Shown here in pieces: positions 31,545 through 63,793 of a DNA stretch of 64,000 nucleotides. The position numbers and the translations under genes are program-made. The notes beneath the pieces were generated by a model. That model saw only the letters and a list, made by a program, of their open reading frames with translations, was not told the DNA's origin and ran no database searches. Numbering within the stretch: the stretch's first letter is position 1; each line of letters opens with the position of its first letter. This DNA is from Mobula hypostoma (lineage: Eukaryota): contig NC_086108.1 of assembly GCF_963921235.1 (NCBI RefSeq), forward strand, positions 7,936,001-8,000,000. The letters run 5' to 3'.

Positions 31545-34413
31545 AAGATCTTTGGCTGACTTGTTCTAATTGTCGGCCTGCTGCGGGACGCGTTGTTTCA
31601 TACACTCGCGTTCGGGTACAGCTCTGGGTTCCAGTAAGCTCGCCGTTGTAGGCAGGAGTGTGGCCCTTGCCAAGGTGTGTTGCGATGGTCTAGAAGTGCG
31701 AGGTCGGTTTGTTGCTCTTTGTGAGGATCCGCTTCGCAGTTTTAACTGCTGATCCAGCTTTTCCATTCGCTCTGCTGTTTCCGGGGCTGCTGCACAACTG
31801 CTCAAAATCCCATTCTCGTGCAAATCGCTGACGAGTGTTGTGGCCCATTCTCACTAACCACTTGTGTTGGGCTACCATATCTCGCAAAACGAGCCTTCAA
31901 TTTGCGAATAACAGAGGCGCTGGTCGTATCGCAAAGAAGATCTACCTCGAAGAAATTGCTGTAGTAATCAATGGGGACGAGTTACTCTTTTCCCGCGAAT
32001 GTAAACAGGTTATTCCCACGGCCGAGCAGGTACCTCATGACTCATAAGCGATTCTTTCTGCTGACTCATTTCGTATGTGCGACAAATATCACATGTAGCA
32101 ATATATTGCTTGATGTCGCTGCTCATGCCCGGCCAAAAAGAGATTGGCGTGCGCGTCTGAGGCTTCCTTCTACGCCCAAGTGTGACGAATGAATTCTTTC
32201 CTTCATTTGCTTTGGCTCACTTTGCGGAATGATGACACGCTCACCTTTGAAGATGAAGCCGTGCGGGCTCAGCCCTATAGCTATAGTAAGGTGTGAGTTG
32301 CTCTGGTAGCGCGTCACGTTTGCTCGGCCATCCACTGATGATTACGCGTTTCAACGTCTGTAGTGTGTCATCTTTCGCTGTTTCTATGCGAATCTGCTCC
32401 AGACGCTCATCGCGGATTGACAGGTGCCATAGCATGTTGACTTTGTCGAAGCTGTTCTCCTGGCCTGGAGGACCGCTAACTGCTTGCGATAACGTATCCG
32501 CGAGGTGCATGAGCTTTCCTTGACAGTAGGTGATGTTGAAGTCATAGCCCTGCAGGTGAAGAAGCATTCCCTGTAGGCGTTTTGGCACCTTCACCGACGG
32601 CTTCTTAACTATCATCTCGAGCAGTTTGTGATCACTGAGTGTTCTCGTGAAGCAGCCAAAAGTGTATTGATGAAAACGCTGAAGTGTGAAAACGATTGTG
32701 AGCATTTCCTTTTCGGTCGCTGCGTAACGCGTTCCTGTGTCTGTTAGTGCTCTGCTTGCATATGCGATCGGACGTCCATTCTGGAGGAGTGCTGCCCCTA
32801 GGCCTTTGTTGCTGGCGTTACACTGGATGGTCAGCTCTTCCTTAGAATTGTAGTATGCTAACACCGGTGCTCCGCATACCATCCGCTTGATGTTGGAGAC
32901 AGCGTTTTGCTGCTCAGCTGACCACTCCCATGCTAAATCTGGCTTTGTCAGCTGTCTTATTGGCTCAAGGGTATCTGAGAGACTTGGTAGAAAACGGCTC
33001 AGGTAGTTGACAAATCCAATCAATCGCTGCACTCCCTGCACATCCTTAGGTACTGGCATGTTGAGAACGTCAGCGACCTTTTTAGCATCAGGCTGAAGTC
33101 CCTCACTTGTGATGAGATGCCCCAAAAACGTTATCTGTCGCTCTGAAGACAGATTTGTTCTTGTTGAGCCTGATATGCTGCCCTGCACAACGCTGTAATA
33201 GCTACTCAAGTTTCCCATCGTGATCGGCGATTGCCTTTTCCTGCGTTTCCCCTTTTCCGTACACCAGTATGTCGTCTGAGACGCAGATCACTCCCGGTAG
33301 TCCTTCCAGCGCCTGATGCAGCCTGCGCTGGAAGATCTCTGATGAAACGCTGGTTCCAAACAGGAGTCTGAGCCATCTATACCGCCCGAAAGGTGTGTTG
33401 AAAGTGGTGAGCACGCTTGATTCACTGTCCAATTTCACTTGCCAGAATGCAGAACTCCTGTCAAGCTTGCTGAAAACCATAGCCTGGTGAAGATCTGGCA
33501 AAATGTCCTCTATCACTGGGAGGGGGCAGTGTTCTCTCCTCAGCGCTTTGCTCAATGGTCGAGGGTCAATGCATATACAAAGATTGCCGTTTTTCTCTGC
33601 GACCACTAACTGGCTAAGCCACCTTGAAGGTTCATGGACCGGAGCTATCACCTTGTGGTCTACCAGTTGATCAAGCTCAGCTTTCGCTTCCCGCTTCATA
33701 GTGTGAGGTAGACGTCGTGGGGGTAACACTGTGGGTTGAACTTCCTCATCAATCTGCAGGCGGGCTGCACCCGGAAGCTCCCCGGGCGCATCATCGAACA
33801 CCTCTGCATAGCGTTCTTCTGGTGTGCATTGTTTTTCTTTAAGTGTAGATGCATGCACCCTGCGAAAGTTGTCACCATTGACCGTAATCAGCTACATTTG
33901 CTGGCTGGCCCTGCTTCCCCAGCAATGGTGTGAAGTCGTCAGTGACCACGACAAATTCGACAGAATACTTGCAGTTCGTCATGGGGTCACCCAATTTCAC
34001 TCTGCACATCCATTCTGCATCCATGGTGGTCTTGTTCCACATCATCAGCTTTTTTGTGCATTGTCTTAGTGTGTGGTCTACTCCCTCCATGTATTTGTGG
34101 GGTAAAATGTTAATGCTCGCCCCGCTGTCGACTTGGAAGTCTATTGGCTTTCCAGTGATGAGCATCTGTGTGAATACGTCATCGCTTGTCTTCAAACTGT
34201 TGAGCACCAGTGTGACATTGTCGATAAACTCGGTGCTGCTGTCCCTGTTGGATTGGTGATCGCTTTGTGCTTCCACCCCATGCACGGGCTTCTGCTTGCA
34301 TACCTCTGCAAAGTGATTTCGAATGCCACACACCTGTCTGTATGCTGGGCATTGTTGCTTGTCTCTTGCATGTTCCGTGCCACAGTACTTGCAAGGGTTC
34401 ACTTTGCTTCTGT

Positions 34414-35634
34414 TGTCATGGTCTGGTCCATGAAATCCGCATTCCGGTCCACGGTCCGGTCCATGTTCCTTATTCCAGTTTTTCCAGTTTTCCCCAGTTT
34501 CTGTTGAGGCAGCTGATTCTCGTTTGAGCTGGCTTCATAAATAGCTTCAGGATTCAGCCTCTGGCTGCTGGATTGTTCTGTCCATACCCCCTGTCTGAAT
34601 CCAATCCAATCAAATCCCATCCAATCCCATCCCTTCCCTTCCCTCGCCTCGTCTTGCCTCGCATGTAACCCTTGCCTGCACTGCTGTCAAGTTCAATTGC
34701 TGGAGCAAGATAAGGAACTGTCTATTGTTGTTTTGAACTGTCTCTGTGTGCTTGCCTTCGCTAGGTAGGTCTGTCCGTTTGCTGCTACCTAGTATTGAGA
34801 ACCATCTCTGTGTCCATGTCTTCGCTAGGTAGGTCCAGCCATTTGCCACTGCCTTGTGTTGGGAACCATCTTGTCATATTCTGCATTCTGTGTAATGAGT
34901 CCCGGCCCTATGCCCTATATCCAAGGAGGGGTCCTGGCTCCGTGTTCCATGTTCCTGTCTCTCCCTCAACCAAGGCTCTGTGTTCCTGTCTCTCCCTTGA
35001 CCTAGTCAAGGCTTCGAGGTCTCGTCCAGTCCTAGCCACGATCCAAGAACCTTATCCTGTCTAAGCCATGGCTTTGTGTTCTCGTCTTGTCCATGTGTCT
35101 CACCCAGCCCAGAGTACCTTGCCCAGCCCAGTGCAGAGTTCCCTTGTCCTGTCCAGGAGTCTCACATCCAGTCCTGTTGCCTCTCCTCATCTTGTAGCCA
35201 CGTCTTGTCCTCGCCTAGTTCTGGAGTCCAAGCCCCAGTCAAGTCCCAGATTCTGGGTCCTTGTCCAGTCTCTGGCTCGGAGTCCATACCCAAGCCTCAA
35301 AGTACCCTATCCTCGAAGAACCCAAGCCTCGTCATGCCTTTGCCTAGATCCGGGGTCTGAGCCCGAGTCAAGACCCAGGTTTTGGGTCCTTATCCAGTCT
35401 CTGGCTCGGAGTCCAAGTCCAGGCTCCTAGTTCCAAGTTCCATGTCCTGGTTCCGCTATCCTAGTCAAGTTCTAGCCCAGGCCCTGTATCCTTGTCTCGT
35501 CCAGGGCCTGTGTCATGTCCAGAGTCCTTTCTTCCCCACTTTCCTTGCTTTCTTGACTAACCTAGTCCTGTTCCTTGTCCTTCAGTGTCTGTGTCTTGCA
35601 TTTGGGTCCACCTCCCAGTGCCCCCACTATGACA
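34414..35634 (+). mobile_element. Solo LTR nested in Gypsy gag (1221 bp)
   Basis: tgtcat...atgaca termini, 5-bp TSD tctgt; removing it restores gag ...LNSHR-SKVNPCKYC in frame. Confidence 0.88.
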
Positions 35635-37209
35635 TCTGTGGCTGTTCAAGGTGCCTTTTGCCCTGGCTCCACCACTAGCACTAGCCTTCTGTCCAGGATG
35701 CTTTGAACCTTTCTTGCTAGTGCGAGGTTTAATCTTATGGACAGTAGCGGACCTGCTGTCTGCAGCTGTACTGAATGCTCGTAGGTGTGATTCAGCCATT
35801 TCTGTGCTTTCACAGATGTCAATGCAGTCACTGAGCAATAGCCTTCTCTCTTGTAACTGACGTTTCTGCTTTGGGAGACGTTAATACCCATATGATCTTG
35901 TCTCTCAACAGACTGTCTGACATACACAAGCAAAAATTACATGTCTTTGCAAGAGATCTAAGGCTGGCAAGAAACTATTCAAAGGTCTCACCTTGTTCTT
36001 GTTGCTGCTTGTTGAACAAGTACCGTTCATAAGTCTCATTTTTCTCACCAATAACATATCTGTCAAATGCAGCTAAAACCTTTCTGAGGTCTTGGCCTTC
36101 AGCCTCATCTGCGAATGCTAAACTGTGGTAGACCTCAAGTCCTGATGGTCCAATTGTCTGTAAAAATAATGCCATCTGGTGTGCTGGAACTTGTTTGGGC
36201 AGCTGTGCTACGATGCTGTAGTTAGTCCACATCTGCCACCATGTCTTCCATCGGTCTATCACTCTGCAGTTGACCGTCACGGCCGGTGGCCAGCGGATGC
36301 CGCTGACTGGGGGAGGACTTCTGCCCCGACCATGGTTCCCCGGCACGGGGTCGCCCGCGGGTGCTGGGTGCCACTGAGATTCTGCTGTCTCACCTCCAGG
36401 CATTGCTACTGCACCCGTCTCTATTTGTGGCCGGCTCCTCGTCTCGGTCGACATTTTTACTCTTACACTCACCCTCCGATGTTTCAGAGTTGTGCTATTA
36501 CCATGCTGCCAACTGCAAGTTGACAACATTGGGCGCTGCGGTTGAAAAAAGCAATTTTCCGAGCCCCACCGCTGCCACCATGTTTTGAGACAGAGTTTTC
36601 AGATAAAAACAACAGCGCATGCGCACCAACTTTATTCGTCTGCTCACGAGTGCATGTACAAGTATAGCATAACAAAGGGATATGTTTACATCTTACCAAA
36701 TCAGGGAAGATTGTGCTGGGGAGCGGGGAGAGGCAGATGGCAAGTGTCACCACAATTTTGGCACCAACCAAGCATGTCCACAACTCACTAACCCTAATCC
36801 GTACATCTTTGGAATGTGGGAGGGAACGGGAGTATCCGGAGGCAACCCGAAGGGTCAGGGGGAAAACGTACAAACTCTCTACAGCCGGCAGCAGGAATTG
36901 AACCTCGACGTTACAACTGCTGTCGTAAATTGTTATGCTCTTTGTGTGTAGATTTTCATTGATTCCATTGTATTTCCTTGTTCTTCTGTGAATGCCTGCA
37001 GGAAAATGAATCTCAGGGTTGTATTTGGTGACACAATGTACTTTGATAATAAATTTGAAGTTTGAACTACTACGTTACCATGCCTCCCCATAAATTTATT
37101 ACTTCGCTGCAGGATGAAGAACCCCTGCTTGTCCTAACTCCTCCATTAGCTCAAGCCCTCCTGTGCAGACAACATTCCTACGAATGGTACATTATTTAGT
37201 TACATCCTT

Positions 37210-37835
37210 AGCAATTCAAAATTCAAAGTAAATTTATTATCGAAGTATATTTATATCACCATACGCAACCCTGAATCATTTTCCTGTGGGCAAACTCAAT
37301 AAATCTATAGAATGGTAACCATAGCAGAATCAGTGAAAGATTGCCTAACTGGGGCGTTCAACCAGAGTGCAGATGACAGCAAAAATAAAGAAATAATATT
37401 CATAAATAAATAAGCAATAAATATTGAGAACATAGGAAATATTGGGTCCTTGAAAATGAGCCCACTGGTTGCAGGACCATTTCAATGATGAGGCAAGTGA
37501 AGTTGTTCCTTTGATTCAACAGCCTGATGGCTGAGGGGTAATAACTTTTCCTGAATCTGGTGGTGTGAGTCCTGAGGCTCCTGTGTCTTTATCGTCATGG
37601 CAGCAGTGAGAAGAGAGCGTGACCTGAGTGCTGGGGATCACTAATAATGGATGTTGCTTTCCTGGGACAGTGTACGGTGTAGATGTGCTCAGAGGTAGGA
37701 CGGGCTTTCACCATGACGGACTGGGCTGTATCTACTACCTTTTGTAAGATTTTCTGTTCAAGGGCATTGATGCTTCCATACCAGGCTGTGATGCAGCCAG
37801 TCAATACACTCTCCACTACACCCCCACAGAAGTTT
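37210..37835 (-). mobile_element. Rex1/Babar-like LINE 3' part (mirror copy ~57808-58433)
   Basis: ESVLTGCITAWYGS...HSGHALFSLLP and 3' UTR with tttgaa tail. Confidence 0.8.
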
Positions 37836-38736
37836 CACACAATTCACACAATGCCAAGTGTCAGGAGTATCCTGACCTACTTATCCATCAGTCTGTCAGC
37901 ACTTGATAAACACAATCGGTTTTTCGGTTCCAGTCGTCAAACAGTGAAACACGAAGGAATATGCTGAAAGATTATTCCGACCAAGAGGTCACACTGTCTG
38001 TCCCTGACTCCCCCTGGCAAAGACTTCCTCTCTAAACTGGAATTCATCGCCATGGACGGCTGTGGAGGCCAAGTCATTGGGTATATTTAAAGCAGAGGCT
38101 GAGAGTTTCTTGATCAGTCAGGGTGTCAAAGGCTATGAGGAGAAAGCAAGAGAATGGGGCTGAGAGGCAAAATAAATCAGCCAGGATGGAATGGCAGAGC
38201 AGATGAAATAGCCAAATTTTGCTCCTATGGCTCTCTTTAAACAGAGAATGGTGAAACTGTGGAATCCTTTGTCCCAGGCAGCTATGGAGGCCAAGTCGAT
38301 ATGCATATACATGGCAGAGATTGATATATTCTTGATTGGTCAGGGCATGAAGGGATACGGGGAGAAGGCAGGAGATCGGGGCTGAGAGGGAAATGGATCA
38401 GTCATGATGAAATGGCAGAGCAGACTCGATGGGCCAAATGCCTAATTCTGCTTCTATATCTCATGGTCTTATGGAAACAGGAATAATGGGGAGGAGCTAT
38501 CTGAGAGAAAGGTAGGGTGGTGGTACTGTTATTACCTTGGATTTCCATATCATCCTTGCTCTGTCACAAAATAAAGCACAATTTCAATCCACAGAAGAAC
38601 AGCTCATTCCCAACCAGAAGTTCTCAATGTTCTTCAAAACGAGTCAGTATTTTGGAGAGACTATCAATACTTTACTCAAACTCTACCATTGGAAGACAAA
38701 CAACGAAGGTCAGCTGATCAACCAATCCCAATCCCA

Positions 38737-39626
38737 AACACGAGAAGTTCTGGAGATGCTGGAAATCCAGAGGGATGTGCACAAAATGCTGAAGGATCTC
38801 TGCAGGCCGGGCTGCATCCATGGAAATGAATATAGCAATCGACATTTTGGGCTAGGAAGACACCAGAATTAAAAGATAGGGGATGGGGAAGGAGGATAGC
38901 TAGAAGCTGATAGGTGAAACCATTTGGGTGGGAAAGGTCGAGGGATGGAGAGGAAGGAATCTGATAGGGGAGGAGAGTGTTTCATTGGAGAAAGGGATGG
39001 AGGGGAGGACCCAGGGGGAGGTGATAGGCAGGTGAGAAGAGGTAAGGGGCCAGAGTGGGGAATAGAAGAAGAGGGGAAGGGGAGGGATTTCTTTTTATCA
39101 GAAGGAGAAATCGATATTCGTGCCATCAAGTTGGAGACTACTCAGATGGCCTCATTTTGGCACAAGAGTGGGCTACGTTGGAGCAGGAATGGGAATTGAA
39201 ATTAAAATATTTGGCTTTTGGCAGATGGAGCAGGGGTACTCAATGAAGCTGTCCCTCAACTTATGACGGGTCTCACAAATGTAGAGGAGGCCACGTTGGG
39301 AGCACTGGACACAATAGACAACCCCAGCAGGTGCGCTCCTGTTGCCTCACCTGGAAGGACCATTTGGGGCACTGAACAGAGGTGAATTGGGAGATGTAGC
39401 ATTGTGACCACTTGCAGGGGTAAGCGCTGGGAGGGAGATGAGTGGGGAGGGCTGAATGGGCAAGGGAATAAAGGAGGTAGTGATCCCTGCAGAGAATGGA
39501 GAGATGTGGGGCGGAGGGGGAGGGGGAGGTAAGATGTGTTCAGTGGTGCGATCCTGCTGAGGATGATGGAAGTTGTGGAGGATGATGTGTTGGATGTGGC
39601 AGGTCATGGGGTGGTAGGTTGAGACA
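38737..39626 (-). mobile_element. Penelope-like element 3' part, truncated at the duplication breakpoint
   Basis: GIY-YIG remnant GVVYCVQCSQRGLLYICETR; pseudo-LTR module at ~38740-38855; the longer copy is at ~55945-56906. Confidence 0.8.
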
Positions 39627-39847
39627 TTTTTACTCTTACACTCACCCTCCGATGTTTCAGAGTTGTGCTATTACCATGCTGCCAACTGCAAGTTGACAAC
39701 ATCGGGCGCTGCGGTTGAAAAAAGCAATTTTCCGAGCCCCACCGCTGCCACCATGTTTCGAGATAGATATTTCAGATAAAAACAATGGCGCATGCGCACC
39801 AACTTTAATCATCTGCTCATGAATGCATGCACAAGTATAGCATAACA
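39623..39847 (-). mobile_element. Third copy of the 94-bp Gypsy LTR (39754-39847) with PBS and 5' leader
   Basis: Matches 36450-36674; followed by aagg and the continuation of the CR1 3' end that was interrupted at 30462. Confidence 0.92.
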
Positions 39848-40959
39848 AAGGGATACGGGGAGAAGGCAGGAGAATTGGGGCTGAGAGGGAAATGGATCAG
39901 CCATGATGAAATGGTGGAGCAGACTCGATGGGCCAAATGGCCTAATTCTGCTCCTATATCTTATGGTCTCTTGAGAGCCACATTGTATCCAGTTTCCCAC
40001 CAACTCTTGCAGCGTGTTACAGGCATGTAGCATGCTCTGTGGGGGAAAAAATCTCCTTTAAACATTCAGCCTCTCCCCTTAAATCAATACCTTGTAGTTT
40101 GACATTCGTACAATGCAGAAAAAATTATGATTAACTACCCTATGTCTCTCATAACTTTTGTACACTTCTACCTCCCCACAACCTTTGATGCCTCAGAGAA
40201 AACAACCCCATGTTTGTCCAGCCTTTCCTTATGGTAGAGTCATAGAGACGTAGTAAACTACAGTAATGAAACATGATTTATGATGGCTAATGTGCCAAAA
40301 GCTCTCCTATCTGCCTGCGATGCCACTTTCAATGAATTATGGGCCTGTATTCCCAGATCCCTTTGTTCTATTGCATTCCCCAGTGCCCTACCGTTCACTG
40401 CATAAGACCTACTCTGGTTGGTCCTACCAAAGTGCAACACCTCCTACTTGTCTGCATTAAATTCCATGTGACCATTAAAAAGCCTCTTGAAAGCCACTAT
40501 TGTATTCATTCTCACTAGGGTGTACAGGCACATCGCATGCTTTGTGTGGGGAAAAAAATCATCTTCAAACCTCCACCCCCCCTCACCTTAAACCTATACC
40601 ATAAGACCATAAGACAAAGGAGCAGAAGTTGGCCATTCGGCCTATCGAGTCTGCTCCGCCATTTTATCATGAGCTGATCCATTCTCCCATTTAGTCCCAC
40701 TCCCCCTTCTTCTATTTGATACTTCTACGAAGGAAAAAATATTTTGATTAACTGTCCTCTCATAATCTTGTAAACTTCTATCTCCTCTCAGCCTCTGACA
40801 CTTCAGAGAAAACAGCCCTTGCTGTCTAGACCTTCCCCGTGGCTCATACTCTCTAATCCAGGCAGCATCCTGGTGAACCTCTTCTGCCTCCCGGGGCAAC
40901 GTGGTATCATTGAGGTCAGCTTTATAACACCAGTGATCAGAGATTCAGGTTCAATTTAG

Positions 40960-41445
40960 TTTTATTTTATTTCGAGATACAGCACAGTAACAAGCCATTT
41001 GCGCCCATTGAACCCTCGTGACTAATCAACCTCCTCACCTGTGGGCCTTTGGACCGTGGCAGGAAACGAGAGCACCTGGAGGACACCCACGTGGTCATGA
41101 GGAGAACATACAGAACTCTTCGCAGACAGCAGCGGAATGGAACCTGGCTCATTGGTGCTTTAATAGTGTTACGCTAACCACTACACTTCCCCGCCCGCCT
41201 ACCTCTGCCGCAGTCTGTCAGTTCTCACCCTGACAGTGCGTGTTTCTTATAGGTGCTCCAGTTTCCTCACACATTCAAAATGTTCGGGTTAGGGTTAGTG
41301 AGTTACGGACATCTTGTGTCGGAGCCAGAAACATTGATACTTGCAGGCTGCCACCAGCAAGTTCTCAGTCTGCGTTAATCATTGTGCAAATGACACATTT
41401 CACTGTACATTTTGATGTACACATGACAAATAAAGCTAATCTCGT
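40960..41445. mobile_element. Two tRNA-derived V-domain SINE fragments in opposite orientation
   Basis: Core ggtgctcc(a/g)gtttcctc..ac..tc.aaa on minus (~40975-41190) and plus (~41200-41445) strands. Confidence 0.6.
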
Positions 41446-41854
41446 TCATCTCTGCTCTCACTTTCTCCAAAGCATGCACATCGTCCCTGTAATGGGGCGA
41501 GCCAAACTGAACACAATACTTCCAATGTAGCCCAAACCTACATTTGATACAGTTACGTCAAGTCTTCCTGACTCCTAATCAATGTCCCAGTTGTCCTATC
41601 ACAAGCAGAAAAATAAATTAGGCCCAGATCCTTTGGATTTTATGGGAGGAGGCGTGCTGTCAGTGAAACACAGATCCTGAGGAAACATGGCGGGGCAGAT
41701 GTTGAGATGTTTCCACCATCGGGAGAGTCTTATACAATGGATGAAGTTACAAGGTCAGAAGGGAGGACTAAAACCTGGGGTCCAAAAGAACGTTGTGTCA
41801 CAAAGCACCAAACTCAAAGTATTATCTTATTATGCACCTGCTATGGTATACTTG

Positions 41855-42270
41855 GGTGGCGGGGTGGAAATGCATCTCTACCAAAGGAGGTGCAAGGCGC
41901 TCCTCCCCTCTGTTAGCCTGCAGGTCACCCTTGGGCAAGGAATCAGCTTAGACTCCCCGACCAGGGTCAAGTGAAGCCATGGGAGCAGGTGGTGGATGGT
42001 TGTACGAGAAGCCAGTGCATATCACAAGTCCTGGTTATGTGACCACTGACGCCAGGCAGACAATCTCTGAAGAGAATTGATAATGGCTTGGGGGGAGGGG
42101 TGTTGCGGGGTGTGGGGGGAATCACCTGTCTTGTAAAAACCCTGCCTAGAAGAAGGCAATGGCAAACCATGTTGGTAGAAAAATTTGCCCAGAGCAATAA
42201 TGCTCATGCAAAGACCATGATTGCCCGCATCATATGACATGGCATATAATGATGATGATGATGATGATGA
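41855..42270 (+). mobile_element. Non-autonomous RTE-related SINE-like element
   Basis: gaagaaggcaatggcaaacca motif and (atg)n tail; paralogous to 9455-9848 and 47197-47568. Confidence 0.65.
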
Positions 42271-42439
42271 ATTTTTCAATCTGCCAAGATAAAGAAGCTG
42301 CAGGGGTTCAGCTACAGAATGCACTGCTGTTTCTGCCTACACTTGTAACAGCATCTCCCAAAGCTGCAACCTCTCCTACTGAAAACAGCAGAGTCATGGG
42401 AACATCACTCTCCAACTCACACAATAAATAACTCTATAC

Positions 42440-43000
42440 TAACTTCAGATTCATTTTCTTGAGGACATTTACAGGAAAATAAAGAAATACAAAAGAATTT
42501 ATGAAATCTATAAATCAAGACTGACAAACAATGTGCAGAAGAAGAAAAATTGTGCAAATAAATACATAAATAATGCTGAGAACGAGAGTTGTCAAGCCCT
42601 TGAAAGTGAGCCTGTAGGTTGTGAAATCAATTCAGAGTTGAGTGAAGTTATCCACACTGGTTCAGGAGCCTGATGGTTGTGGGGTAATAACAGTTCCTGA
42701 ACCTGGTGGTGTGGGACCTGAGGCTTCAGTATCTCCTGCCTGATGGTAGTAGCGAGAAGAGAGCATAGTTGGATGGTGGAGAGTCCTTGATGATGGATGC
42801 TGCTTTTTTGTGGCTCATTGCAGATGTGTTCAATGGTGGGGAGGGCTTTTCCTATGATGTGCTGGGCTGCATCCACCAATTTCGATAGCCTTTTCCATTT
42901 CTGGACATTGGTGTTTCCATACCAGGCTGGGATGAAACCAATTAGGATGCTCTCCACTGTGCAACAATAGAAGTTTGTCAAAGTTTTAGGTGGCACACCC
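42440..43000 (-). mobile_element. Rex1/Babar-like LINE 3' part (monomeric relative of the 95-bp array)
   Basis: KTLTNFYCCTVESILIGFIPAWYG...; contains a single copy of the array unit. Confidence 0.82.
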
Positions 43001-52390: not shown

Positions 52391-53203
52391 TATAGGTTAA
52401 AATGAAAACAGAGAGCTGAGGAGATTCCTAACAGAAGTTTGTAAAGCTGGAACACACATCGACAGGGTTGACATTCAGAAATGTTTCTGATATGCTGCCA
52501 GAGTTTGAGGTGGAATTTGATAGGATCGTGGTGATTAGGAGTCATTTAGGCAGCTACAGGAACATGCAGAGAATGGAGGGATTATGGAGAGCCTGCAGGC
52601 AAAAAACGTGTGAAATTAATTTGGCATTGTTCTGTCCTGTGCTGTACTATTACAGAGTCACCGAGGTATATTTAAAACAGATGATTTTTTACAAGAACAT
52701 TAAGATTTTTTTTAAAGATTAGCTTCATTTGTCACACATATACCAAAACATAAACGAGGATTGTTCAGAGTAAGCACACAAGTGTCATCATGCTTCCAAA
52801 GCAAACGTTGCATGCCCAAAATTCACTAACCCAACCGGTATGCCTTTGGAATATGGGAGGAAAGCAGAGCACCTGGGGGAAACATAGAAACATAGAAAAA
52901 CCTACAGCACAATACAGGCCCTTCGGCCCACGATGCTGTGCCGAACATGTCCCTACCTTAGAGCTACCCAGGCTTTACCCATAGCCCTCTATTTTTCTAA
53001 GCTCCATGCAGCAAACCCGCATGGTCACGGGGAGAATGTATAAACTCCTTACAGACAGCAGTGAGAATCGATCCTCCATTGGTAGGTTCTTGATTAGTAG
53101 GGGTGTCATAGGTTACGGACAGAAGCAGGAGAATGGGGTTGAGAGAGAAACATAAGTCAGCCATGACTGAATGGCGAAGACTCAATTGGCCGAATAGTCT
53201 AAA

Positions 53204-53577
53204 CTGGGGTTCCCAACCTTCTAAAGAAATTCATATTATTATTTATTTATTGAGATACAGTGTAGAATAGGCTCTTCCAGCCCTTCGAGCCTCACCGCCC
53301 AGCAATTCCCCAATTTAATCGGAACCTAATCAGGGGGCAATTTACAATGACCTATTAGCCAACCAGCTGGTATGGCTTTGGACTGTGGGGGAAACCGGAG
53401 CACCCGCAGGAAACCCACACAATCACGGGGAGAACGCACAAACTCATTACAGGCAGTGATGGGAATTGAGCCCGGGTCTCCGGTACTGTAAAACGTTGTG
53501 CTAACCACTACACTACCATGCCATGGACCTCTACCATTAACCAAAGGGGTCCTCGGACCCCAAGCTGGGAACCCCTG
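53204..53577. mobile_element. hAT-like MITE containing a tRNA-derived V-SINE (~53245-53524, minus)
   Basis: Imperfect TIRs ggggttcccaacctt / aagctgggaacccctg, imperfect 8-bp TSD gtctaaac/gtcgaaat; the SINE has A-box tggtagtgtagtgg, B-box gggctcaattccc and the V core. Confidence 0.55.
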
Positions 53578-53767
53578 GTCGAAATCTATTTGCTGTCTTA
53601 TGGTCTAACGCGATAGTTGCTCGTGCATGTTTCCTTATGGTCCTATGGAGTTATAGAATAATAGTGCACAGAACAGGCTGTCCAGACCTACTCATCCATG
53701 CCAACCAAACTACCCCGCTAAGCTAGTCCTAATTGCCTGTGTTCGGCCCAAATACCTCTAAATTTTC

Positions 53768-54380
53768 AGTTGAAAAGTCAGGAGGTTATGTTGCAAATTT
53801 ATAAAACTCTGATTAGGCCACATCTGGAGTATTGCATGCAGTTCTGTTTGTCCCACTAGAGGAAGGATGTTGAGGCTTTGGAGAGGATGCAGAAGAGGTT
53901 CACCAGGATGCTTCCTGGTTTAGAGGGCATGTCCTTTCACGGGAGGCTGGATAAACTTGGGTTGTTTTCTCTGGAGTGTCGGAGGCTGACGGGATATCTG
54001 ATAGAGGTTTATAAGATTGTGAGAGGTATAGATAGAGTGGACAGAGTATCGGCTTCCCAGGGTAAAAATGTCTAATACCAGAGGGCATGCATTGAAGGTG
54101 AGAGGGGGTGGGTTAAGGGGTTGTGAGGGGTAAATTTTTCACTCAGAGAGTGGTGGATATCTGGAATGCACTGCCTGGTATGCTGGTAGAGGCAAATACA
54201 TTAGGGGCTTTTCAAGGCATTTAGACAGGCACATGGATGTAAGAAAGATGGGGGGATGTGGACAAGGTGTAGGTGGGATGGATTAGTATTTGGGTGCTTT
54301 CGATTTGCCTTTTATTAGGTTTGGCACAACAATGTGGGCTGAATGGCCTGTTCCTGTACAGTACTGCTGTATGCTCTGTG
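53768..54380 (+). mobile_element. CR1 LINE 3' part
   Basis: [24 protein letters not shown]... Confidence 0.85.
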
Positions 54381-54659
54381 TCCTGATTACCATACGGTGA
54401 GAGTCGTTAGGAGAGGCGAGCATGCCGGGAGCCGGGAGGAACTCTTGCTTTAACATAGTGGAATGAGATTTTTCATAAAACTACCAATTCCCACAGCTAT
54501 CTTGACTGTATCTCTTCCCACCCTGTTTCCTGTAAAAATGCTATTCCCTTTTCTCAGTTCCTTCATTGCTGAGCATCTGTTCCCAGGATTGGGCTTTCCT
54601 TTCCAGGACATTAGAGATGTCCTCCTTCTTCAAAGAACAAGTTTTCCCTTCCTCAACCC

Positions 54660-55946
54660 AAATATAACCATATAACAATCACAGCACGGAAACAGGCCAT
54701 CTCGGCCCTTCTACTCCGTGCCGAACGCTTACTCTCACCTAGTCCCACCGACCTGCATTCAGCTCACAACCCTCCATTCCTTTCCTGTCCATATATCTAT
54801 CCAATTTAACTTTAAATGACAACATCGAACCCACCTCAACCACTTCTGCTGGAAGCTCATTCCACACAGCTACCACTCTCTGAGTAAAGAAGTTCCCCCT
54901 CATGTTACCCCTAAACTTTTGCCCTTTAACTCTCAACTCATGTCCTCTTGTTTGAATCTCCCCCACTCTCAATGGAAAAAGCCTATCCATGTCAACTCTA
55001 TCTATCCCCCTCATAATTTTAAATACCTCTATCAAGTCCCCCCTCAACCTTCTACACTCCAAAGAATAAAGACCCAACTTGTTCAACCTTTCTCTGTAAC
55101 TTAGGTGATGAAACCCAGGCAATAAACAGTAGGCAAATAATATTCAGAACTGAAGTCCATGAAAGTGAGTTCACAGCCATGAGGCCAGTCCTCGCTGCAG
55201 CCGATCTAGGAGACTGTTAATTGATCAGCACAGGTCCTTAGTTCTCGGCCTGGTACCCCATCTAGGCTGGATATTTTCAGTGGATCCACCCTCCTGAAGG
55301 ATGTTCTCACGTCGAGCTCAGAGACTGAAATCACAGGGTTGTCAGGGTTTGGTAGTTTGTGAAGGCTCCTCCATGTTTTGATGGTCAAAGCGAGCAGAGA
55401 AGACACTGAGCTCATCTGGAACCAAAGCCTGGTTGTCACCTGTGTCACTTGATTCCACTTTGTAAGAGGTAATAGTATTCAAGCTCCTGCCACAGCTATC
55501 GAGCAGCATTCAGTGAGTCAAGTTTGGTCCAGAATCGCCACTTCACATGTGAGCTGGCTTTCCAGAGATTGTAACCATATAAAATATAACCATATAACAA
55601 TTACAGCACGGAAACAGGCCATCTCAGCCCTTCTAGTCCATGCCGAACTCTTACTCTCACCTAGTCCCACCGACTTGCACTCAGCCCATAACCCTCCATT
55701 CTTTTCCTATCCAATTTAACTTTAACCAACAACATGGAACCTGCCTCAACCACTTCTGCTGGAAGCTCGTTCCACACAGCTACCACTCTCTGAGTAAAGA
55801 AGTTCCCCCTCATGTTACCCCTAAACTTTTGCCCTTTAACTCTCAACTCATGTCCTCTTGTTTGAATCTCCCCCATTCTCAATGGAAAAAGCCTATCCAC
55901 GTCATCTCTATCTATCCCCCTCATAATTTTAAATACCTCTATCAAA
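54660..55946 (-). mobile_element. Two young CR1 3' ends (~54660-55120 and ~55575-55946) flanking a Rex1 fragment
   Basis: Near-identical to ~50340-50790; (atatggtt)-type tails. Confidence 0.85.
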
Positions 55947-56016
55947 TCTCCTCCATTCCCCGGATATCCATGCTTACCCCATCTTCCCACCATATTAGCT
56001 GTGATAGAGTTCCTCT

Positions 56017-59000
56017 TGTCTCAACCTACCACCCCATGACCTGCCACATCCAACACATCATCCTCCACAACTTCCATCATCCTCAGCAGGATCGCACCAC
56101 TGAACACATCTTACCTCCCCCTCCCCCTCCGCCCCACATCTCTCCATTCTCTGCAGGGATCACTACCTCCTTTATTCCCTTGCCCATTCAGCCCTCCCCA
56201 CTCATCTCCCTCCCAGCGCTTACCCCTGCAAGTGGTCACAATGCTACATCTCCCAATTCACCTCTGTTCAGTGCCCCAAATGGTCCTTCCAGGTGAGGCA
56301 ACAGGAGCGCACCTGCTGGGGTTGTCTATTGTGTCCAGTGCTCCCAACGTGGCCTCCTCTACATTTGTGAGACCCGTCATAAGTTGAGGGACAGCTTCAT
56401 TGAGTACCCCTGCTCCATCTGCCAAAAGCCAAATATTTTAATTTCAATTCCCATTCCTGCTCCAACGTAGCCCACTCTTGTGCCAAAATGAGGCCATCTG
56501 AGTAGTCTCCAACTTGATGGCACGAATATCGATTTCTCCTTCTGATAAAAAGAAATCCCTCCCCTTCCCCTCTTCTTCTATTCCCCACTCTGGCCCCTTA
56601 CCTCTTCTCACCTGCCTATCACCTCCCCCTGGGTCCTCCCCTCCATCCCTTTCTCCAATGAAACACTCTCCTCCCCTATCAGATTCCTTCCTCTCCATCC
56701 CTCGACCTTTCCCACCCAAATGGTTTCACCTATCAGCTTCTAGCTATCCTCCTTCCCCATCCCCTATCTTTTAATTCTGGTGTCTTCCTAGCCCAAAATG
56801 TCGATTGCTATATTCATTTCCATGGATGCAGCCCGGCCTGCAGAGATCCTTCAGCATTTTGTGCACATCCCTCTGGATTTCCAGCATCTCCAGAACTTCT
56901 CGTGTTTGGGATTGGGATTGGTTGATCAGCTGACCTTCGTTGTTTGTCTTCCAATGGTAGAGTTTGAGTAAAGTATTGATAGTCTCTCCAAAATACTGAC
57001 TCGTTTTGAAGAACATTGAGAACTTCTGGTTGGGAATGAGCTGTTCTTCTGTGGATTGAAATTGTGCTTTATTTTGTGACAGAGCAAGGATGATATGGAA
57101 ATCCAAGGTAATAACAGTACCACCACCCTACCTTTCTCTCAGATAGCTCCTCCCCATTATTCCTGTTTCCATAAGACCATGAGATATAGAAGCAGAATTA
57201 GGCATTTGGCCCATCGAGTCTGCTCTGCCATTTCATCATGACTGATCCATTTCCCTCTCAGCCCCGATCTCCTGCCTTCTCCCCGTATCCCTTCATGCCC
57301 TGACCAATCAAGAATATATCAATCTCTGCCATGTATATGCATATCGACTTGGCCTCCATAGCTGCCTGGGACAAAGGATTCCACAGTTTCACCATTCTCT
57401 GTTTAAAGAGAGCCATAGGAGCAAAATTTGGCTATTTCATCTGCTCTGCCATTCCATCCTGGCTGATTTATTTTGCCTCTCAGCCCCATTCTCTTGCTTT
57501 CTCCTCATAGCCTTTGACACCCTGACTGATCAAGAAACTCTCAGCCTCTGCTTTAAATATACCCAATGACTTGGCCTCCACAGCCGTCCATGGCGATGAA
57601 TTCCAGTTTAGAGAGGAAGTCTTTGCCAGGGGGAGTCAGGGACAGACAGTGTGACCTCTTGGTCGGAATAATCTTTCAGCATATTCCTTCGTGTTTCACT
57701 GTTTGACGACTGGAACCGAAAAACCGATTGTGTTTATCAAGTGCTGACAGACTGATGGATAAGTAGGTCAGGATACTCCTGACACTTGGCATTGTGTGAA
57801 TTGTGTGAAACTTCTGTGGGGGTGTAGTGGAGAGTGTATTGACTGGCTGCATCACAGCCTGGTATGGAAGCATCAATGCCCTTGAACAGAAAATCTTACA
57901 AAAGGTAGTAGATACAGCCCAGTCCGTCATGGTGAAAGCCCGTCCTACCTCTGAGCACATCTACACCGTACACTGTCCCAGGAAAGCAACATCCATTATT
58001 AGTGATCCCCAGCACTCAGGTCACGCTCTCTTCTCACTGCTGCCATGACGATAAAGACACAGGAGCCTCAGGACTCACACCACCAGATTCAGGAAAAGTT
58101 ATTACCCCTCAGCCATCAGGCTGTTGAATCAAAGGAACAACTTCACTTGCCTCATCATTGAAATGGTCCTGCAACCAGTGGGCTCATTTTCAAGGACCCA
58201 ATATTTCCTATGTTCTCAATATTTATTGCTTATTTATTTATGAATATTATTTCTTTATTTTTGCTGTCATCTGCACTCTGGTTGAACGCCCCAGTTAGGC
58301 AATCTTTCACTGATTCTGCTATGGTTACCATTCTATAGATTTATTGAGTTTGCCCACAGGAAAATGATTCAGGGTTGCGTATGGTGATATAAATATACTT
58401 CGATAATAAATTTACTTTGAATTTTGAATTGCTAAGGATGTAACTAAATAATGTACCATTCGTAGGAATGTTGTCTGCACAGGAGGGCTTGAGCTAACGG
58501 AGGAGTTAGGACAAGCAGGGGTTCTTCATCCTGCAGCGAAGTAATAAATTTATGGGGAGGCATGGTAACGTAGTAGTTCAAACTTCAAATTTATTATCAA
58601 AGTACATTGTGTCACCAAATACAACCCTGAGATTCATTTTCCTGCAGGCATTCACAGAAGAACAAGGAAATACAATGGAATCAATGAAAATCTACACACA
58701 AAGAGCATAACAATTTACGACAGCAGTTGTAACGTCGAGGTTCAATTCCTGCTGCCGGCTGTAGAGAGTTTGTACGTTTTCCCCCTGACCCTTCGGGTTG
58801 CCTCCGGATACTCCCGTTCCCTCCCACATTCCAAAGATGTACGGATTAGGGTTAGTGAGTTGTGGACATGCTTGGTTGGTGCCAAAATTGTGGTGACACT
58901 TGCCATCTGCCTCTCCCCGCTCCCCAGCACAATCTTCCCTGATTTGGTAAGATGTAAACATATCCCTTTGTTATGCTATACTTGTACATGCACTCGTGAG

Positions 59001-62000
59001 CAGACGAATAAAGTTGGTGCGCATGCGCTGTTGTTTTTATCTGAAAACTCTGTCTCAAAACATGGTGGCAGCGGTGGGGCTCGGAAAATTGCTTTTTTCA
59101 ACCGCAGCGCCCAATGTTGTCAACTTGCAGTTGGCAGCATGGTAATAGCACAACTCTGAAACATCGGAGGGTGAGTGTAAGAGTAAAAATGTCGACCGAG
59201 ACGAGGAGCCGGCCACAAATAGAGACGGGTGCAGTAGCAATGCCTGGAGGTGAGACAGCAGAATCTCAGTGGCACCCAGCACCCGCAGGCGACCCCGTGC
59301 CGGGGAACCATGGTCGGGGCAGAAGTCCTCCCCCAGTCAGCGGCATCCGCTGGCCACCGGCCGTGACGGTCAACTGCAGAGTGATAGACCGATGGAAGAC
59401 ATGGTGGCAGATGTGGACTAACTACAGCATCGTAGCACAGCTGCCCAAACAAGTTCCAGCACACCAGATGGCATTATTTTTACAGACAATTGGACCATCA
59501 GGACTTGAGGTCTACCACAGTTTAGCATTCGCAGATGAGGCTGAAGGCCAAGACCTCAGAAAGGTTTTAGCTGCATTTGACAGATATGTTATTGGTGAGA
59601 AAAATGAGACTTATGAACGGTACTTGTTCAACAAGCAGCAACAAGAACAAGGTGAGACCTTTGAATAGTTTCTTGCCAGCCTTAGATCTCTTGCAAAGAC
59701 ATGTAATTTTTGCTTGTGTATGTCAGACAGTCTGTTGAGAGACAAGATCATATGGGTATTAACGTCTCCCAAAGCAGAAACGTCAGTTACAAGAGAGAAG
59801 GCTATTGCTCAGTGACTGCATTGACATCTGTGAAAGCACAGAAATGGCTGAATCACACCTACGAGCATTCAGTACAGCTGCAGACAGCAGGTCCGCTACT
59901 GTCCATAAGATTAAACCTCGCACTAGCAAGAAAGGTTCAAAGCATCCTGGACAGAAGGCTAGTGCTAGTGGTGGAGCCAGGGCAAAAGGCACCTTGAACA
60001 GCCACAGATGTCATAGTGGGGGCACTGGGAGGTGGACCCAAATGCAAGACACAGACACTGAAGGACAAGGAACAGGACTAGGTTAGTCAAGAAAGCAAGG
60101 AAAGTGGGGAAGAAAGGACTCTGGACATGACACAGGCCCTGGACGAGACAAGGATACAGGGCCTGGGCTAGAACTTGACTAGGATAGCGGAACCAGGACA
60201 TGGAACTTGGAACTAGGAGCCTGGACTTGGACTCCGAGCCAGAGACTGGATAAGGACCCAAAACCTGGGTCTTGACTCGGGCTCAGACCCCGGATCTAGG
60301 CAAAGGCATGACGAGGCTTGGGTTCTTCGAGGATAGAGTACTTTGAGGCTTGGGTATGGACTCCGAGCCAGAGACTGGACAAGGACCCAGAATCTGGGAC
60401 TTGACTGGGGCTTGGACTCCAGAACTAGGCGAGGACAAGACTTGGCTACAAGATGAGGAGAGGCAACAGGACTGGATGTGAGACTCCTGGACAGGACAAG
60501 GGAACTCTGCACTGGGCTGGGCAAGGTACTCTGGGCTGGGTGAGACACATGGACAAGACGAGAACACAAAGCCATGGCTTAGACAGGATAAGGTTCTTGG
60601 ATCGTGGCTAGGACTGGACGAGACCTCGAAGCCTTGACTAGGTCAAGGGAGAGACAGGAACGCAGAGCCTTGGTCGAGGGAGAGACAGGAACATGGAACA
60701 CAGAGCCAAGACCCCTCCTTGGATATAGAGCATAGGGCCGGGACTCATTACACAGAATGCAGAATATGACAAGATGGTTCCCAACACAAGGCAGTGGCAA
60801 ATGGCTGGACCTACCTAGCGAAGACATGGACACAGAGATGGTTCTCAATACTAGGTAGCAGCAAATGGACAGACCTACCTAGCGAAGGCAAGCACACAGA
60901 GACAGTTCAAAACAACAATAGACAGTTCCTTATCTTGCTCCAGCAATTGAACTTGACAGCAGTGCAGGCAAGGGTTACATGCGAGGCAAGACGAGGCAAG
61001 GCGAGGTGAGGCGAGGGAAGGGAAGGGAAGGGAAGGGAAGGGATGGGATGGGATGGGATGGGATGGGATTGGATGGGATTTGATTGGATTGGATTCAGAC
61101 AGGGGGTATGGACAGAACAATCCAGCAGCCAGAGGCTGAATCCTGAAGCTATTTATGAAGCCAGCTCAAACGAGAATCAGCTGCCTCAACAGAAACTGGG
61201 GAAAACTGGAAAAACTGGAATAAGGAACATGGACCGGACCGTGGACCGGAATGCGGATTTCATGGACCAGACCATGACAACAGAAGCAAAGTGAACCCTT
61301 GCAAGTACTGTTGCACGGAACATGCAAGAGACAAGCAACAATGCCCAGCATACAGACAGGTGTGTGGCATTCGAAATCACTTTGCAGAGGTATGAAAGCA
61401 GAAGCCCGTGCATGGGGTGGAAGCACAAAGCGATGACCAATCCAACAGGGACAGCAGCACCGAGTTTATCGACAATGTCACACTGGTGGTCAACAGTTTG
61501 AAGACAAGCGATGACGTATTCACACAGATGCTCATCACTGGAAAGCCAATAGACTTCCAAGTCGACAGCGGGGCGAGCATTAACATTTTACCCCACAAAT
61601 ACATGGAGGGAGTAGACCACACACTAAGACAATGCACAAAAAAGCTGATGATGTGGAACAAGACCACCATGGATGCAGAATGGATGTGCAGAGTGAAATT
61701 GGGTGACCCCATGACGAACTGCAAGTATTCTGTCGAATTTGTCGTGGTCACTGACGACTTCACACCATTGCTGGGAAGCAGGGCCAGCCAGCAAATGTAG
61801 CTGATTACGGTCAATGGTGACAACTTTCGCAGGGTGCATGCATCTACACTTAAAGAAAAACAATGCACACCAGAAGAACGCTATGCAGAGGTGTTCGATG
61901 ATGCGCCCGGGGAGCTTCCGGGTGCAGCCCGCCTGCAGATTGATGAGGAAGTTCAACCCACAGTGTTACCCCCACGACGTCTACCTCACACTATGAAGCG

Positions 62001-63793
62001 GGAAGCGAAAGCTGAGCTTGATCAACTGGTAGACCACAAGGTGATAGCTCCGGTCCATGAACCTTCAAGGTGGCTTAGCCAGTTAGTGGTCGCAGAGAAA
62101 AACGGCAATCTTTGTATATGCATTGACCCTCGACCATTGAGCAAAGCGCTGAGGAGAGAACACTGCCCCCTCCCAGTGATAGAGGACATTTTGCCAGATC
62201 TTCACCAGGCTATGGTTTTCAGCAAGCTTGACAGGAGTTCTGCATTCTGGCAAGTGAAATTGGACAGTGAATCAAGCGTGCTCACCACTTTCAACACACC
62301 TTTCGGGCGGTATAGATGGCTCAGACTCCTGTTTGGAACCAGCGTTTCATCAGAGATCTTCCAGCGCAGGCTGCATCAGGCGCTGGAAGGACTACTGGGA
62401 GTGATCTGCGTCTCAGACGACATACTGGTGTACGGAAAAGGGGAAACGCAGGAAAAGGCAATCGCCGATCACGATGGGAAACTTGAGTAGCTATTACAGC
62501 GTTGTGCAGGGCAGCATATCAGGCTCAACAAGAACAAATCTGTCTTCAGAGCGACAGATAACGTTTTTGGGGCATCTCATCACAAGTGAGGGACTTCAGC
62601 CTGATGCTAGAAAGGTCGCTGACGTTCTCAACATGCCAGTACCTAAGGATGTGCAGGGAGTGCAGCGATTGATTGGATTTGTCAACTACCTGAGCCGTTT
62701 TCTACCAAGTCTCTCAGATACCCTTGAGCCAATAAGACAGCTGACAAAGCCAGATTTAGCATGGGAGTGGTCAGCTGAGCAGCAAAACGCTGTCTCCAAC
62801 ATCAAGCGGATGGTATGCGGAGCACCGGTGTTAGCATACTACAATTCTAAGGAAGAGCTGACCATCCAGTGTAACGCCAGCAACAAAGGCCTAGGGGCAG
62901 CACTCCTCCAGAATGGACGTCCGATCGCATATGCAAGCAGAGCACTAACAGACACAGGAACGCGTTACGCAGCGACCGAAAAGGAAATGCTCACAATCGT
63001 TTTCACACTTGAGCGTTTTCATCAATACACTTTTGGCTGCTTCACGAGAACACTCAGTGATCACAAACTGCTCGAGATGATAGTTAAGAAGCCGTTGGTG
63101 AAGGTGCCAAAACGCCTACAGGGAATGCTTCTTCACCTGCAGGGCTATGACTTCAACATCACCTACTGTCAAGGAAAGCTCATGCACCTCGCGGATACGT
63201 TATCGCAAGCAGTTAGCGGTCCTCCAGGCCAGGAGAACAGCTTCGACAAAGTCAACATGCTATGGCACCTGTCAATCCGCGATGAGCGTCTGGAGCAGAT
63301 TCGCATAGAAACAGCGAAAGATGACACACTACAGACGTTGAAACGCGTAATCATCAGTGGATGGCCGAGCAAACGTGACGCGCTACCAGAGCAACTCACA
63401 CCTTACTATAGCTATAGGGCTGAGCCCGCACGGCTTCATCTTCAAAGGTGAGCGTGTCATCATTCCGCAAAGTGAGCCAAAGCAAATGAAGGAAAGAATT
63501 CATTCGTCACACTTGGGCGTAGAAGGAAGCCTCAGACGCGCACGCCAATCTCTTTTTGGCCGGGCATGAGCAGCGACATCAAGCAATATATTGCTACATG
63601 TGATATTTGTCGCACATACGAAATGAGTCAGCAGAAAGAATCGCTTATGAGTCATGAGGTACCTACTCGGCCGTGGGAATGACCTGTTTACATTCGCGGG
63701 AAAAGAGTAACTCGTCCCCATTGATTACTACAGCAATTTCTTCGAGGTAGATCTTCTTTGTGATACGACCAGCGCAGCGTAGCCCAACACAAG
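56017..63793. repeat. Right arm of the inverted duplication (within the GbX intron upstream of exon 4)
   Basis: Reverse complement of 31861-39626; 50 bp longer in a pentanucleotide tract (~60980-61095), one 1-bp indel and a ~40-bp deletion near 63775. Confidence 0.97.
58969..63793 (+). mobile_element. Mag-like Gypsy, inverted DNA-level copy (LTR 58969-59062, PBS 59063-59078, nested solo LTR 60009-61279)
   Basis: Same gag/PR/RT/RNase H ORFs and the same nested LTR with acaga TSD; interrupted in integrase by a CR1. Confidence 0.93.

What the first reader, a model, noticed from the sequence alone, without database searches (positions are those of the whole stretch)
31861..63793. Globin X 3' exons sit in a potentially flippable 16.4-kb cassette between ~7.8-kb near-identical inverted arms
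Seen: arms 31861-39626 and 56017-63793 are reverse complements, and the spacer 39627-56016 holds GbX exons 4-5 on the minus strand. I found no exons 1-3 in the window on either strand, so they probably lie to the right and the right arm is intronic. Established: long, highly identical inverted repeats are substrates for intrachromatid recombination that inverts the spacer. Inference: a crossover between the arms would detach the G/H-helix exons from the rest of GbX, giving a recurrent, TE-built on/off structural allele. The spacer orientation may be polymorphic or somatically variable.
Basis: partly seen in the sequence, partly recalled or inferred. Interest (0 to 1): 0.75.

Follow-up and report, generated by a model that had tools for sequence, protein, structure and literature searches.

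The report
Young inverted duplication around globin X
In a devil-ray genome the last two coding exons of globin X lie between two nearly identical 7.8-kb mirror-image stretches that likely grew when DNA repair copied sequence back and forth between remnants of a dead retrotransposon, a layout that would let rare inversions break the gene, although no inverted copy was seen.

Summary
Arms 31861-39626 and 56017-63793 align with 21 substitutions and 3 indels over 7.7 kb. The spacer holds globin X exons 4-5, 70/70 aa identical to a full-length Mobula hypostoma RefSeq protein; exons 1-3 are absent from the window. Short-read contig depths fit the assembly (host part of the arm 1.5-2.3x single-copy DNA in three runs of one sample, about 1x in a sister species), so an assembly artefact is unlikely.

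The arms are not two insertions. Their outer 4.6 kb is a decayed Ty3/Gypsy interior, native on the left. Their inner 3.2 kb (LTR plus host DNA) is native on the right and ten times less diverged. Each foreign end is a microhomology junction. Best reading: two reciprocal repair-copying events, each started in homology and ended by microhomology, enlarged the repeat, as in human inverted-repeat CNVs. The layout resembles F8 intron 22: a crossover would give a null allele, perhaps at 1e-5 to 1e-4 per generation (human rates). No flipped allele was seen or testable, and nothing points to a switch. The scan noted similar transposon-primed inverted duplications elsewhere in this genome.

The parts
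31861..39626 (.). Left arm (7,766 bp): Gypsy interior G + leader/LTR l2 + host block H
56017..63793 (.). Right arm (7,777 bp), reverse complement of the left arm; most likely in GbX intron 3 (inferred)
39627..56016 (.). Spacer, 16,390 bp, in the gene's working orientation
48407..48487 (-). GbX exon 4 (27 codons, AG acceptor, GT donor)
43661..43792 (-). GbX exon 5 coding part (43 codons + stop); an RNA-type contig starts its match exactly at 43792
   Evidence: (record 24)
8177..8290 (-). Alternative last exon of annotated isoform X2 (38/38 aa), beyond the left arm, AG acceptor, repeat-derived
30463..30556 (-). 3' LTR (94 bp, TG..CA) of the left Ty3/Gypsy element, with a purine tract beside it and AAGG target duplication at 30459-30462
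30557..36449 (-). Decayed Gypsy interior: gag-like start at about 36454, protease, RT, RNase H, integrase pieces; broken by frame changes and insertions. Only 31861-36449 is in the arm
   Evidence: Pfam; ORFs
34414..35634 (.). Nested TG..CA insertion with 5-bp target duplication (solo-LTR-like), in both arms, absent from other family copies
   Evidence: (joint 34408-35635)
36450..36674 (-). l2: leader (36450-36580) and 5' LTR (36581-36674, AATAAA at 36636); mirror copy at 59193-58969
36675..39626 (.). H: 2,952 bp of host DNA (repeat fragments and unique stretches), foreign here; native copy at 56017-58968
39623..39626 (.). Left inner junction: 4-bp microhomology (GACA) between the end of H and the gag start of l1
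39623..39847 (-). l1: leader and the element's own 5' LTR (39754-39847); AAGG duplication at 39848-39851, then the interrupted LINE 3' end resumes
63776..63793 (.). Right outer junction: 41-bp deletion with 3 inserted bases, 15-bp templated piece, and about 3 bases shared with a cut LINE RT fragment that continues to 64000

Best explanation
This is a real, young inverted segmental duplication around globin X exons 4-5 that likely grew in two reciprocal repair-copying steps between remnants of one dead Ty3/Gypsy element, and it would work as a rare gene-breaking inversion site, not as a switch. Shown: one Gypsy insertion 3' of the gene (target duplication AAGG at 30459-30462 and 39848-39851) is now interrupted by 3.2 kb (l2 + H) whose native place is the right arm, while the right arm's Gypsy part is a cut copy of the left one. 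Inferred step 1: a break at the intronic LTR/leader remnant used the left element as template, copied about 4.6 kb and ended by microhomology at 63793 (0.44% diverged now). Inferred step 2, later: synthesis running through the left element switched to the right copy by homology, copied l2 and H, and came back by the 4-bp GACA microhomology at 39623 (0.03% diverged). Inferred consequence: a crossover between the arms would invert exons 4-5 and give a globin without G and H helices, at a mutation-like rate, and such alleles would likely be removed by selection.
For: Reciprocal native ends: left flank of the 3' LTR and right flank of l1 are adjacent parts of one LINE 3' end, within about 10 bp on other copies, and share AAGG; integrase pieces continue left of 31861. 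Protein homologues run across the right inner junction (DRVPL|VxTYHP) but not the left: 18 of 32 hits had the anchor motif and all 18 scored higher with the right-side upstream residues (mean BLOSUM 21.8 vs -7.7). Two ages: 20 substitutions in 4,533 bp of G against 1 in 3,177 bp of l2+H (p = 0.0005); 2,481 bp without a substitution (p = 0.006). Copying after decay: of the 23 shown places inside G where other family contigs differ from the left arm, 22 are the same in both arms, and both arms carry the nested insertion. Real in DNA: H contigs 1.46x (X1) and 2.31x (X3) the spacer contigs, 1.79x pooled, 0.93x in organism B; in X2 the l1 junction, H, l2-type leader and shared leader stand at 17.5, 33.9, 35.1 and 53.5, i.e. 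1:1.9:2.0:3.1 as assembled. Mechanism has precedent: first switch at inverted repeats, second by microhomology (PMC6902434, passages); long-tract conversion ended by microhomology joining (PMC5104497, abstract).
Against: No listed contig bridges the left inner junction 39626/39627 in any of the 4 runs (32 of 9,292 pieces were shown), so its reality rests on depth. The tool warns that contig depth is no copy number; X1 alone gives 1.46x, which would fit a heterozygote; the X2 baseline is one 94-bp contig. X1-X4 are one sample and may be the assembled animal. One X5 contig joins gag straight to l1 without H (record 21). The three LTRs differ equally (10-11 of 94), and l2 shares 8 flank bases with l1, so the origin of l2 (old copy or second insertion) is unexplained. 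Substitutions in G are clustered (scan p 0.01-0.04 over five window sizes, not corrected), which allows patchy conversion instead of one copying step. The homologue search used the right-side query and so favours it. Depth over G could not be read because family copies swamp it.
Confidence: 0.7

Rival explanations
1. One reading: the spacer flips often enough to be a polymorphic or somatically variable on/off allele of GbX.
For: Arms 7.7 kb, 99.7% identical outside indels, 16.4 kb apart. In humans recurrence rises with the repeat/inversion size ratio (PMC7263195, passages); the ratio here is 0.47. An F8 inversion has been seen as somatic mosaicism (PMC3211038 section 7).
Against: No flipped allele seen. 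The flip would break a gene kept as a single copy in all cartilaginous fishes surveyed (bioRxiv 2025.09.19.677436, passages). Predicted human rates are 0.9-7.4e-5 per generation, and in Y palindrome P6 conversion is common but only 3 inversions were found in 378 chromosomes (PMC3723533, abstract). The second arm end is very young, so no evolved role is expected.
Confidence: 0.06
2. Assembly artefact: the left l2+H block is a false duplication made by joining two haplotypes of a heterozygous inversion between G and its mirror copy.
For: l2+H is almost identical to its twin (1 in 3,177), as alleles or co-polished copies would be. No listed contig bridges 39626/39627, and an X5 contig shows gag joined to l1.
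Against: That model predicts H:l2:l1:leader of 1:1:1:2; X2 shows 1.9:2.0:1:3.1 and X1+X3 show H at 1.79x. No N at the junction.
Confidence: 0.07
3. One old inverted duplication, or a second old insertion, whose arms are kept alike only by ongoing gene conversion, strongest next to the spacer.
For: Clustered substitutions in G and a long identical inner tract; l2 as old as the other LTRs, with 8 shared flank bases; multi-kb tracts are known.
Against: H is single-copy by depth in organism B, which differs by only about 2% (64 letters in about 3.1 kb of 8 pieces, counted by hand). H interrupts the left element between gag and its own 5' LTR. l1 and l2 LTRs remain 11 of 94 different. This reading can hold for G but not for H.
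Confidence: 0.1
4. One staggered-break inversion inverted the spacer and duplicated the whole arm at both ends.
For: One native and one foreign end on each arm is the pattern such events leave (established knowledge, recalled).
Against: It would give one age along the arm (rejected, p = 0.0005), would put l1 far from and opposite to its own 3' LTR and target duplication, and would need exons 4-5 to have faced the other way before, against full-length orthologues and the X2 exon at 8290 on the same strand.
Confidence: 0.04
5. Two independent young Gypsy insertions in opposite orientation.
For: 60% of the arm is one Gypsy family.
Against: Shared nested insertion and 22 of 23 shared private letters, LTRs 11-12% diverged, and 2,952 bp of non-Gypsy DNA in both arms.
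Confidence: 0.01

Closest known systems
F8 intron 22 inversion (int22h-1 vs int22h-2/-3), haemophilia A (PMC3211038, section 7 and passages read)
   Same: One long repeat inside an intron, an inverted copy outside the gene, near-identity (9.5 kb at 99.9% there; 7.7 kb at 99.7% here); exact homologous exchange would split the gene.
   Different: Here the distance is 16 kb (0.6 Mb for F8, search listing of PMC4705535), the repeat is a young Gypsy-plus-host copy, and no inverted allele has been observed.
Inverted-repeat-initiated CNVs: DUP-NML-INV/DUP and DUP-TRP/INV-DUP at PLP1/MECP2 (PMC6902434, passages read)
   Same: First template switch at inverted repeats (LCR, LINE or Alu), second by microhomology; templated short pieces at junctions.
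   Different: Here there appear to be two such events in opposite directions and of different age, each lengthening the repeat; sizes are kb, not hundreds of kb; germline and apparently homozygous in one animal.
Long-tract gene conversion with non-canonical termination (PMC5104497, abstract read)
   Same: Several kb copied by homologous recombination, ended by microhomology joining or inserted bases, complex breakpoints.
   Different: Shown there in a sister-chromatid reporter in mammalian cells; here ectopic, inverted and natural.
Human polymorphic inversions between inverted repeats (PMC3961182, PMC7263195, passages) and Y palindrome P6 (PMC3723533, abstract)
   Same: Repeat size, identity and spacer are in range; conversion and rare crossover expected.
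   Different: Those are defined by both orientations being found; most leave genes whole.
Break-driven expansion of the plastid inverted repeat (Goulding model as cited in PMC2275221, passages)
   Same: An inverted repeat grows into single-copy DNA by break repair from the other arm.
   Different: Organelle DNA with constant arm homogenisation; here nuclear and seeded by a retrotransposon.

Membership tests
Globin X (GbX1 of batoids) | Orthology by sequence to annotated GbX | tested here: met
   70/70 aa to M. hypostoma X1, 67/70 to M. birostris, 60/70 and 61/70 to two stingrays. GbX1 vs GbX2 taken, not tested by tree or synteny.
Globin X (GbX1 of batoids) | Exons 1-3 collinear upstream on the same strand | not testable with these tools
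   No genome held; absent from the window; inferred from the full-length RefSeq model.
Ty3/Gypsy LTR retrotransposon | Domain order protease-RT-RNase H-integrase | tested here: met
   Pfam: aspartyl protease (weak, E 5e-4), RVT_1, RT_RNaseH_2, Integrase_H2C2, rve (weak, E 0.06) in that order on the minus strand.
Ty3/Gypsy LTR retrotransposon | TG..CA LTRs, primer site after the 5' LTR, purine tract, short target duplication | tested here: met
   94-bp LTRs, TGG start after l1 and l2, purine tract at the 3' LTR, AAGG duplication. The tRNA was not identified by a call.
Ty3/Gypsy LTR retrotransposon | RT tree placement (vs BEL/Pao) | not tested
   Family label rests on Pfam models and domain order.
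Real inverted segmental duplication | Over 1 kb, over 90% identical, includes non-element DNA, doubled depth | tested here: met
   one sample only.
Real inverted segmental duplication | Both junctions bridged by single molecules | tested here: inconclusive
Inverted-repeat-initiated, microhomology-ended CNV | One end in pre-existing inverted homology, the other at microhomology or templated insertion | tested here: met
   GACA at 39623-39626; about 3 shared bases, 15-bp piece and 41-bp deletion at 63776-63793.
Recurrent polymorphic inversion (F8 int22h type) | Long, highly identical inverted repeats, one intragenic | tested here: met
   intronic position inferred.
Recurrent polymorphic inversion (F8 int22h type) | Both orientations observed | not testable with these tools
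   Only short-read contigs were offered; a flip makes no new junction.
Programmed invertible switch | Short recombinase sites and a dedicated invertase | tested here: inconclusive
   None among the long ORFs scanned (8 of 57 ORFs against Pfam); arms are kb-long copies, not short sites.

The most novel reading that the evidence does not exclude
The repeat is a ratchet caught in action: reciprocal copying lengthened it from a 0.2-kb LTR pair to 7.7 kb within one species, the last step still segregates, and it gave GbX both recurrent flipped null alleles and an extended 3' UTR, ending at the copied LTR's AATAAA, that is a 3-kb perfect antisense of its own intron 3 and tunes the gene through double-stranded RNA.
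Probability: 0.08. Interest if true: 0.6.

Novelty: new member of a known kind. Interest (0 to 1): 0.3.

Why it matters
It is a readable natural record of how an inversion-prone repeat is born: two datable copying steps, both likely younger than the split from a sister species, turned retrotransposon debris into an F8-like trap around a single-copy gene. It predicts a low load of GbX null alleles in this ray and offers a locus to measure conversion against crossover in a cartilaginous fish. It does not show new machinery or a regulated switch.

Tried and rejected
No whole genome is held, so exons 1-3 and other copies of the LTR family could not be located. No listed run is on record as RNA: no RNA holder listed. 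X5 and X10 are RNA only by guess. X10 covers 20 of 30 bins of 39001-39900 and none of its listed pieces informs the junction. X5 has no cover at 39601-39622; a hole proves nothing. Whether organism B has the Gypsy insertion or the intronic copy could not be read from X6 and X7. Splicing as the source of the X5 gag-l1 join was rejected: no AG|GT or AG|GC in the 80-bp shared leader. No A-to-G differences in the two X5 contigs over H, which does not exclude editing. No second in-window copy spans the right inner junction at DNA or protein level, hence the library search. Pfam named no retroelement domain in 6 of the 32 homologues, so 'Penelope-like' for that element, and 'CR1' for the LINE pieces, are recalled labels. 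Earlier findings: none near this place, none by LTR sequence. Literature: 'globin X' + 'inversion' + 'inverted repeat' gave 0 papers; 'Mobula' + 'genome' + 'globin' gave 2 listings, neither about this locus by title or abstract start; PMC13023373 and all supplements were not read and may list this gene. A search for GbX knockouts gave nothing usable in its listing, so the cost of a null is unknown.
Full report
Observation. The inverted match is there: 31917-39626 against 63775-56017, 21 substitutions and 3 indels in 7,760 columns. In the spacer, exon 4 (48487-48407) and exon 5 (43792-43661) have canonical splice sites and give 70 of 70 residues of the C-terminus of Mobula hypostoma x globin X1 (P0021); M. 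birostris gives 67 of 70. The 38-residue tail of isoform X2 is also in the window, at 8290-8177. So the window agrees with that species' annotated gene. Ten globin X proteins find no exon 1-3 in the window. As the model is full length, exons 1-3 most likely lie to the right and the right arm is in intron 3; this is inference, since no genome is held.

Anatomy of an arm. From outside in: 4.6 kb of a decayed Ty3/Gypsy interior (G; protease, RT, RNase H and integrase pieces by Pfam), a leader and 5' LTR (l2, 36450-36674), and 2,952 bp of host DNA (H), 64% of which matches other repeats in the window. The window holds four copies of the 94-bp LTR: 30463, 36581, 39754 and the mirror at 59062. The three distinct ones differ from each other at 10-11 of 94 places, so the insertion is old.

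Which end is native. The left element's 3' LTR is preceded by AAGG and the first part of a LINE 3' end. The rest of that LINE end follows not l2 but the third LTR, l1, again after AAGG at 39848. So the original element ran from 30463 to 39847, and l2+H was put into it between gag and l1, with a 4-bp overlap (GACA) at the gag start codon. H is native on the right: the retroelement protein frame that crosses 56016/56017 reads DRVPL|VSTYHP, and 18 of 32 library homologues that carry the anchor motif all match the right-side upstream residues better than the left-side ones; 14 lacked the motif and were dropped, and the query was the right side. At the outer end the roles swap: integrase continues left of 31861, while the right arm stops at a scar (41-bp deletion, 3 inserted bases, 15-bp piece, about 3 shared bases) and joins the middle of a LINE RT.

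Two ages. G has 20 substitutions in 4,533 bp (0.44%), l2+H has 1 in 3,177 (0.03%); p = 0.0005. Both arms share a nested 1.2-kb insertion and 22 of the 23 shown places where other family copies differ (one search shows 40 of 381 rows; compared). G was therefore copied after it decayed. Organism B differs by about 2% in the 8 pieces shown (counted by hand), so both steps look younger than that split, unless conversion has reset the clock. Clustering of the substitutions in G (p 0.01-0.04, uncorrected) hints at some conversion.

Real or artefact. In sample S1, exact unique contigs in H have depth 24-28 (X1) and 26-27 (X3) against means of 18.1 and 11.5 for 7 spacer contigs each: 1.46x, 2.31x, 1.79x pooled. 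In organism B the ratio is 0.93. In X2 the l1 junction contig, H, the l2-type leader and the leader shared by all three copies stand at 1: 1.9: 2.0: 3.1, the counts of the assembly. A false duplication at a heterozygous inversion predicts 1: 1: 1: 2. Limits: the tool warns against reading depth as copy number, S1 is one animal and may be the assembled one, and no listed piece bridges 39626/39627.

A second animal. X5 (sample S2, RNA by guess) has a 1,619-nt contig whose last 1,010 nt match 43792-42783 and whose first 609 do not continue into the intron; 525 coding nt precede exon 5, so this fits spliced mRNA. Exact contigs continue at depth 163-300 to 40858, then 52, 32, 45, 42 and 35 across l1 and H, while bins over G in 32128-34005 and 35884-36509 stay at 2-4. 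That fits read-through into the left arm better than intron signal, but contigs give neither strand nor level. One contig joins 76 nt of gag straight to l1. It is either the older allele without l2+H, or a graph chimera after a pruned edge; cover of gag stops after those 76 nt, which favours the chimera. I cannot decide, so whether the second step segregates is open.

How it works. Most likely each step began by homology between the inverted Gypsy remnants, ran past the end of homology, and finished by microhomology. The origin of l2, as old as the other LTRs and sharing 8 flank bases with l1, is unexplained. The result is the F8 intron-22 layout (PMC3211038, section 7). A crossover would invert exons 4-5 and leave a globin without its last two helices. 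Human estimates for such inversions are 0.9-7.4e-5 per generation (PMC7263195, passages), and palindrome arms convert far more often than they cross over (PMC3723533, abstract). GbX is single-copy in all cartilaginous fishes surveyed (bioRxiv 2025.09.19.677436, passages), so flips would be load, not a setting. No flip was seen and none could have been with these data.

Verdict. Real, young and well explained by known repair chemistry: a new member of a known kind. I found no paper on this locus. The scan has noted similar transposon-primed inverted duplications on other DNA of this genome (unchecked). What lifts it a little is the legible two-step growth and the gene it traps. Interest 0.3.

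Noticed in passing
window 8177-8290 (-): Annotated GbX isoform X2 skips exon 5 and ends in a repeat-derived exon 40 kb beyond exon 4, so if real its pre-mRNA spans both arms; the product would lack the H helix.
   Followed up: partly
window 36636, 39809, 40971 (-): Poly(A) signals: AATAAA in LTR l2, ATTAAA in l1, AATAAA at 40971 near where X5 depth falls; the copied LTR may end an extended GbX 3' UTR.
   Followed up: partly
window 36675-36682 and 39848-39855: l2 and l1 are followed by the same 8 bases although only l1 continues into the LINE: an old copy of l1 with flank, or a target preference.
   Followed up: partly
window 18182-19311: Tandem array of 11.9 copies of a 95-bp unit, 96% alike, resembling a LINE 3' end.
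   Followed up: no
window 29835-30192: 54-bp tandem array (6.6 copies, 97%) just left of the Gypsy 3' LTR.
   Followed up: no
window 50339-50790, 54660-55122, 55582-55951: Three young LINE 3' fragments in the same orientation inside the spacer, 91-95% alike; possible deletion substrates in intron 3.
   Followed up: no
window 11439-11792 and 14277-14624: 354-bp inverted pair, 95.8% alike, 2.5 kb apart around a LINE RT fragment.
   Followed up: no
window 27221-27425 and 31322-31536: Palindromic element of about 200 bp; a relative is inserted in the Gypsy integrase region.
   Followed up: no
window 15123-15641 (+): Tc1/Tc3-type transposase fragment (PF01498).
   Followed up: no
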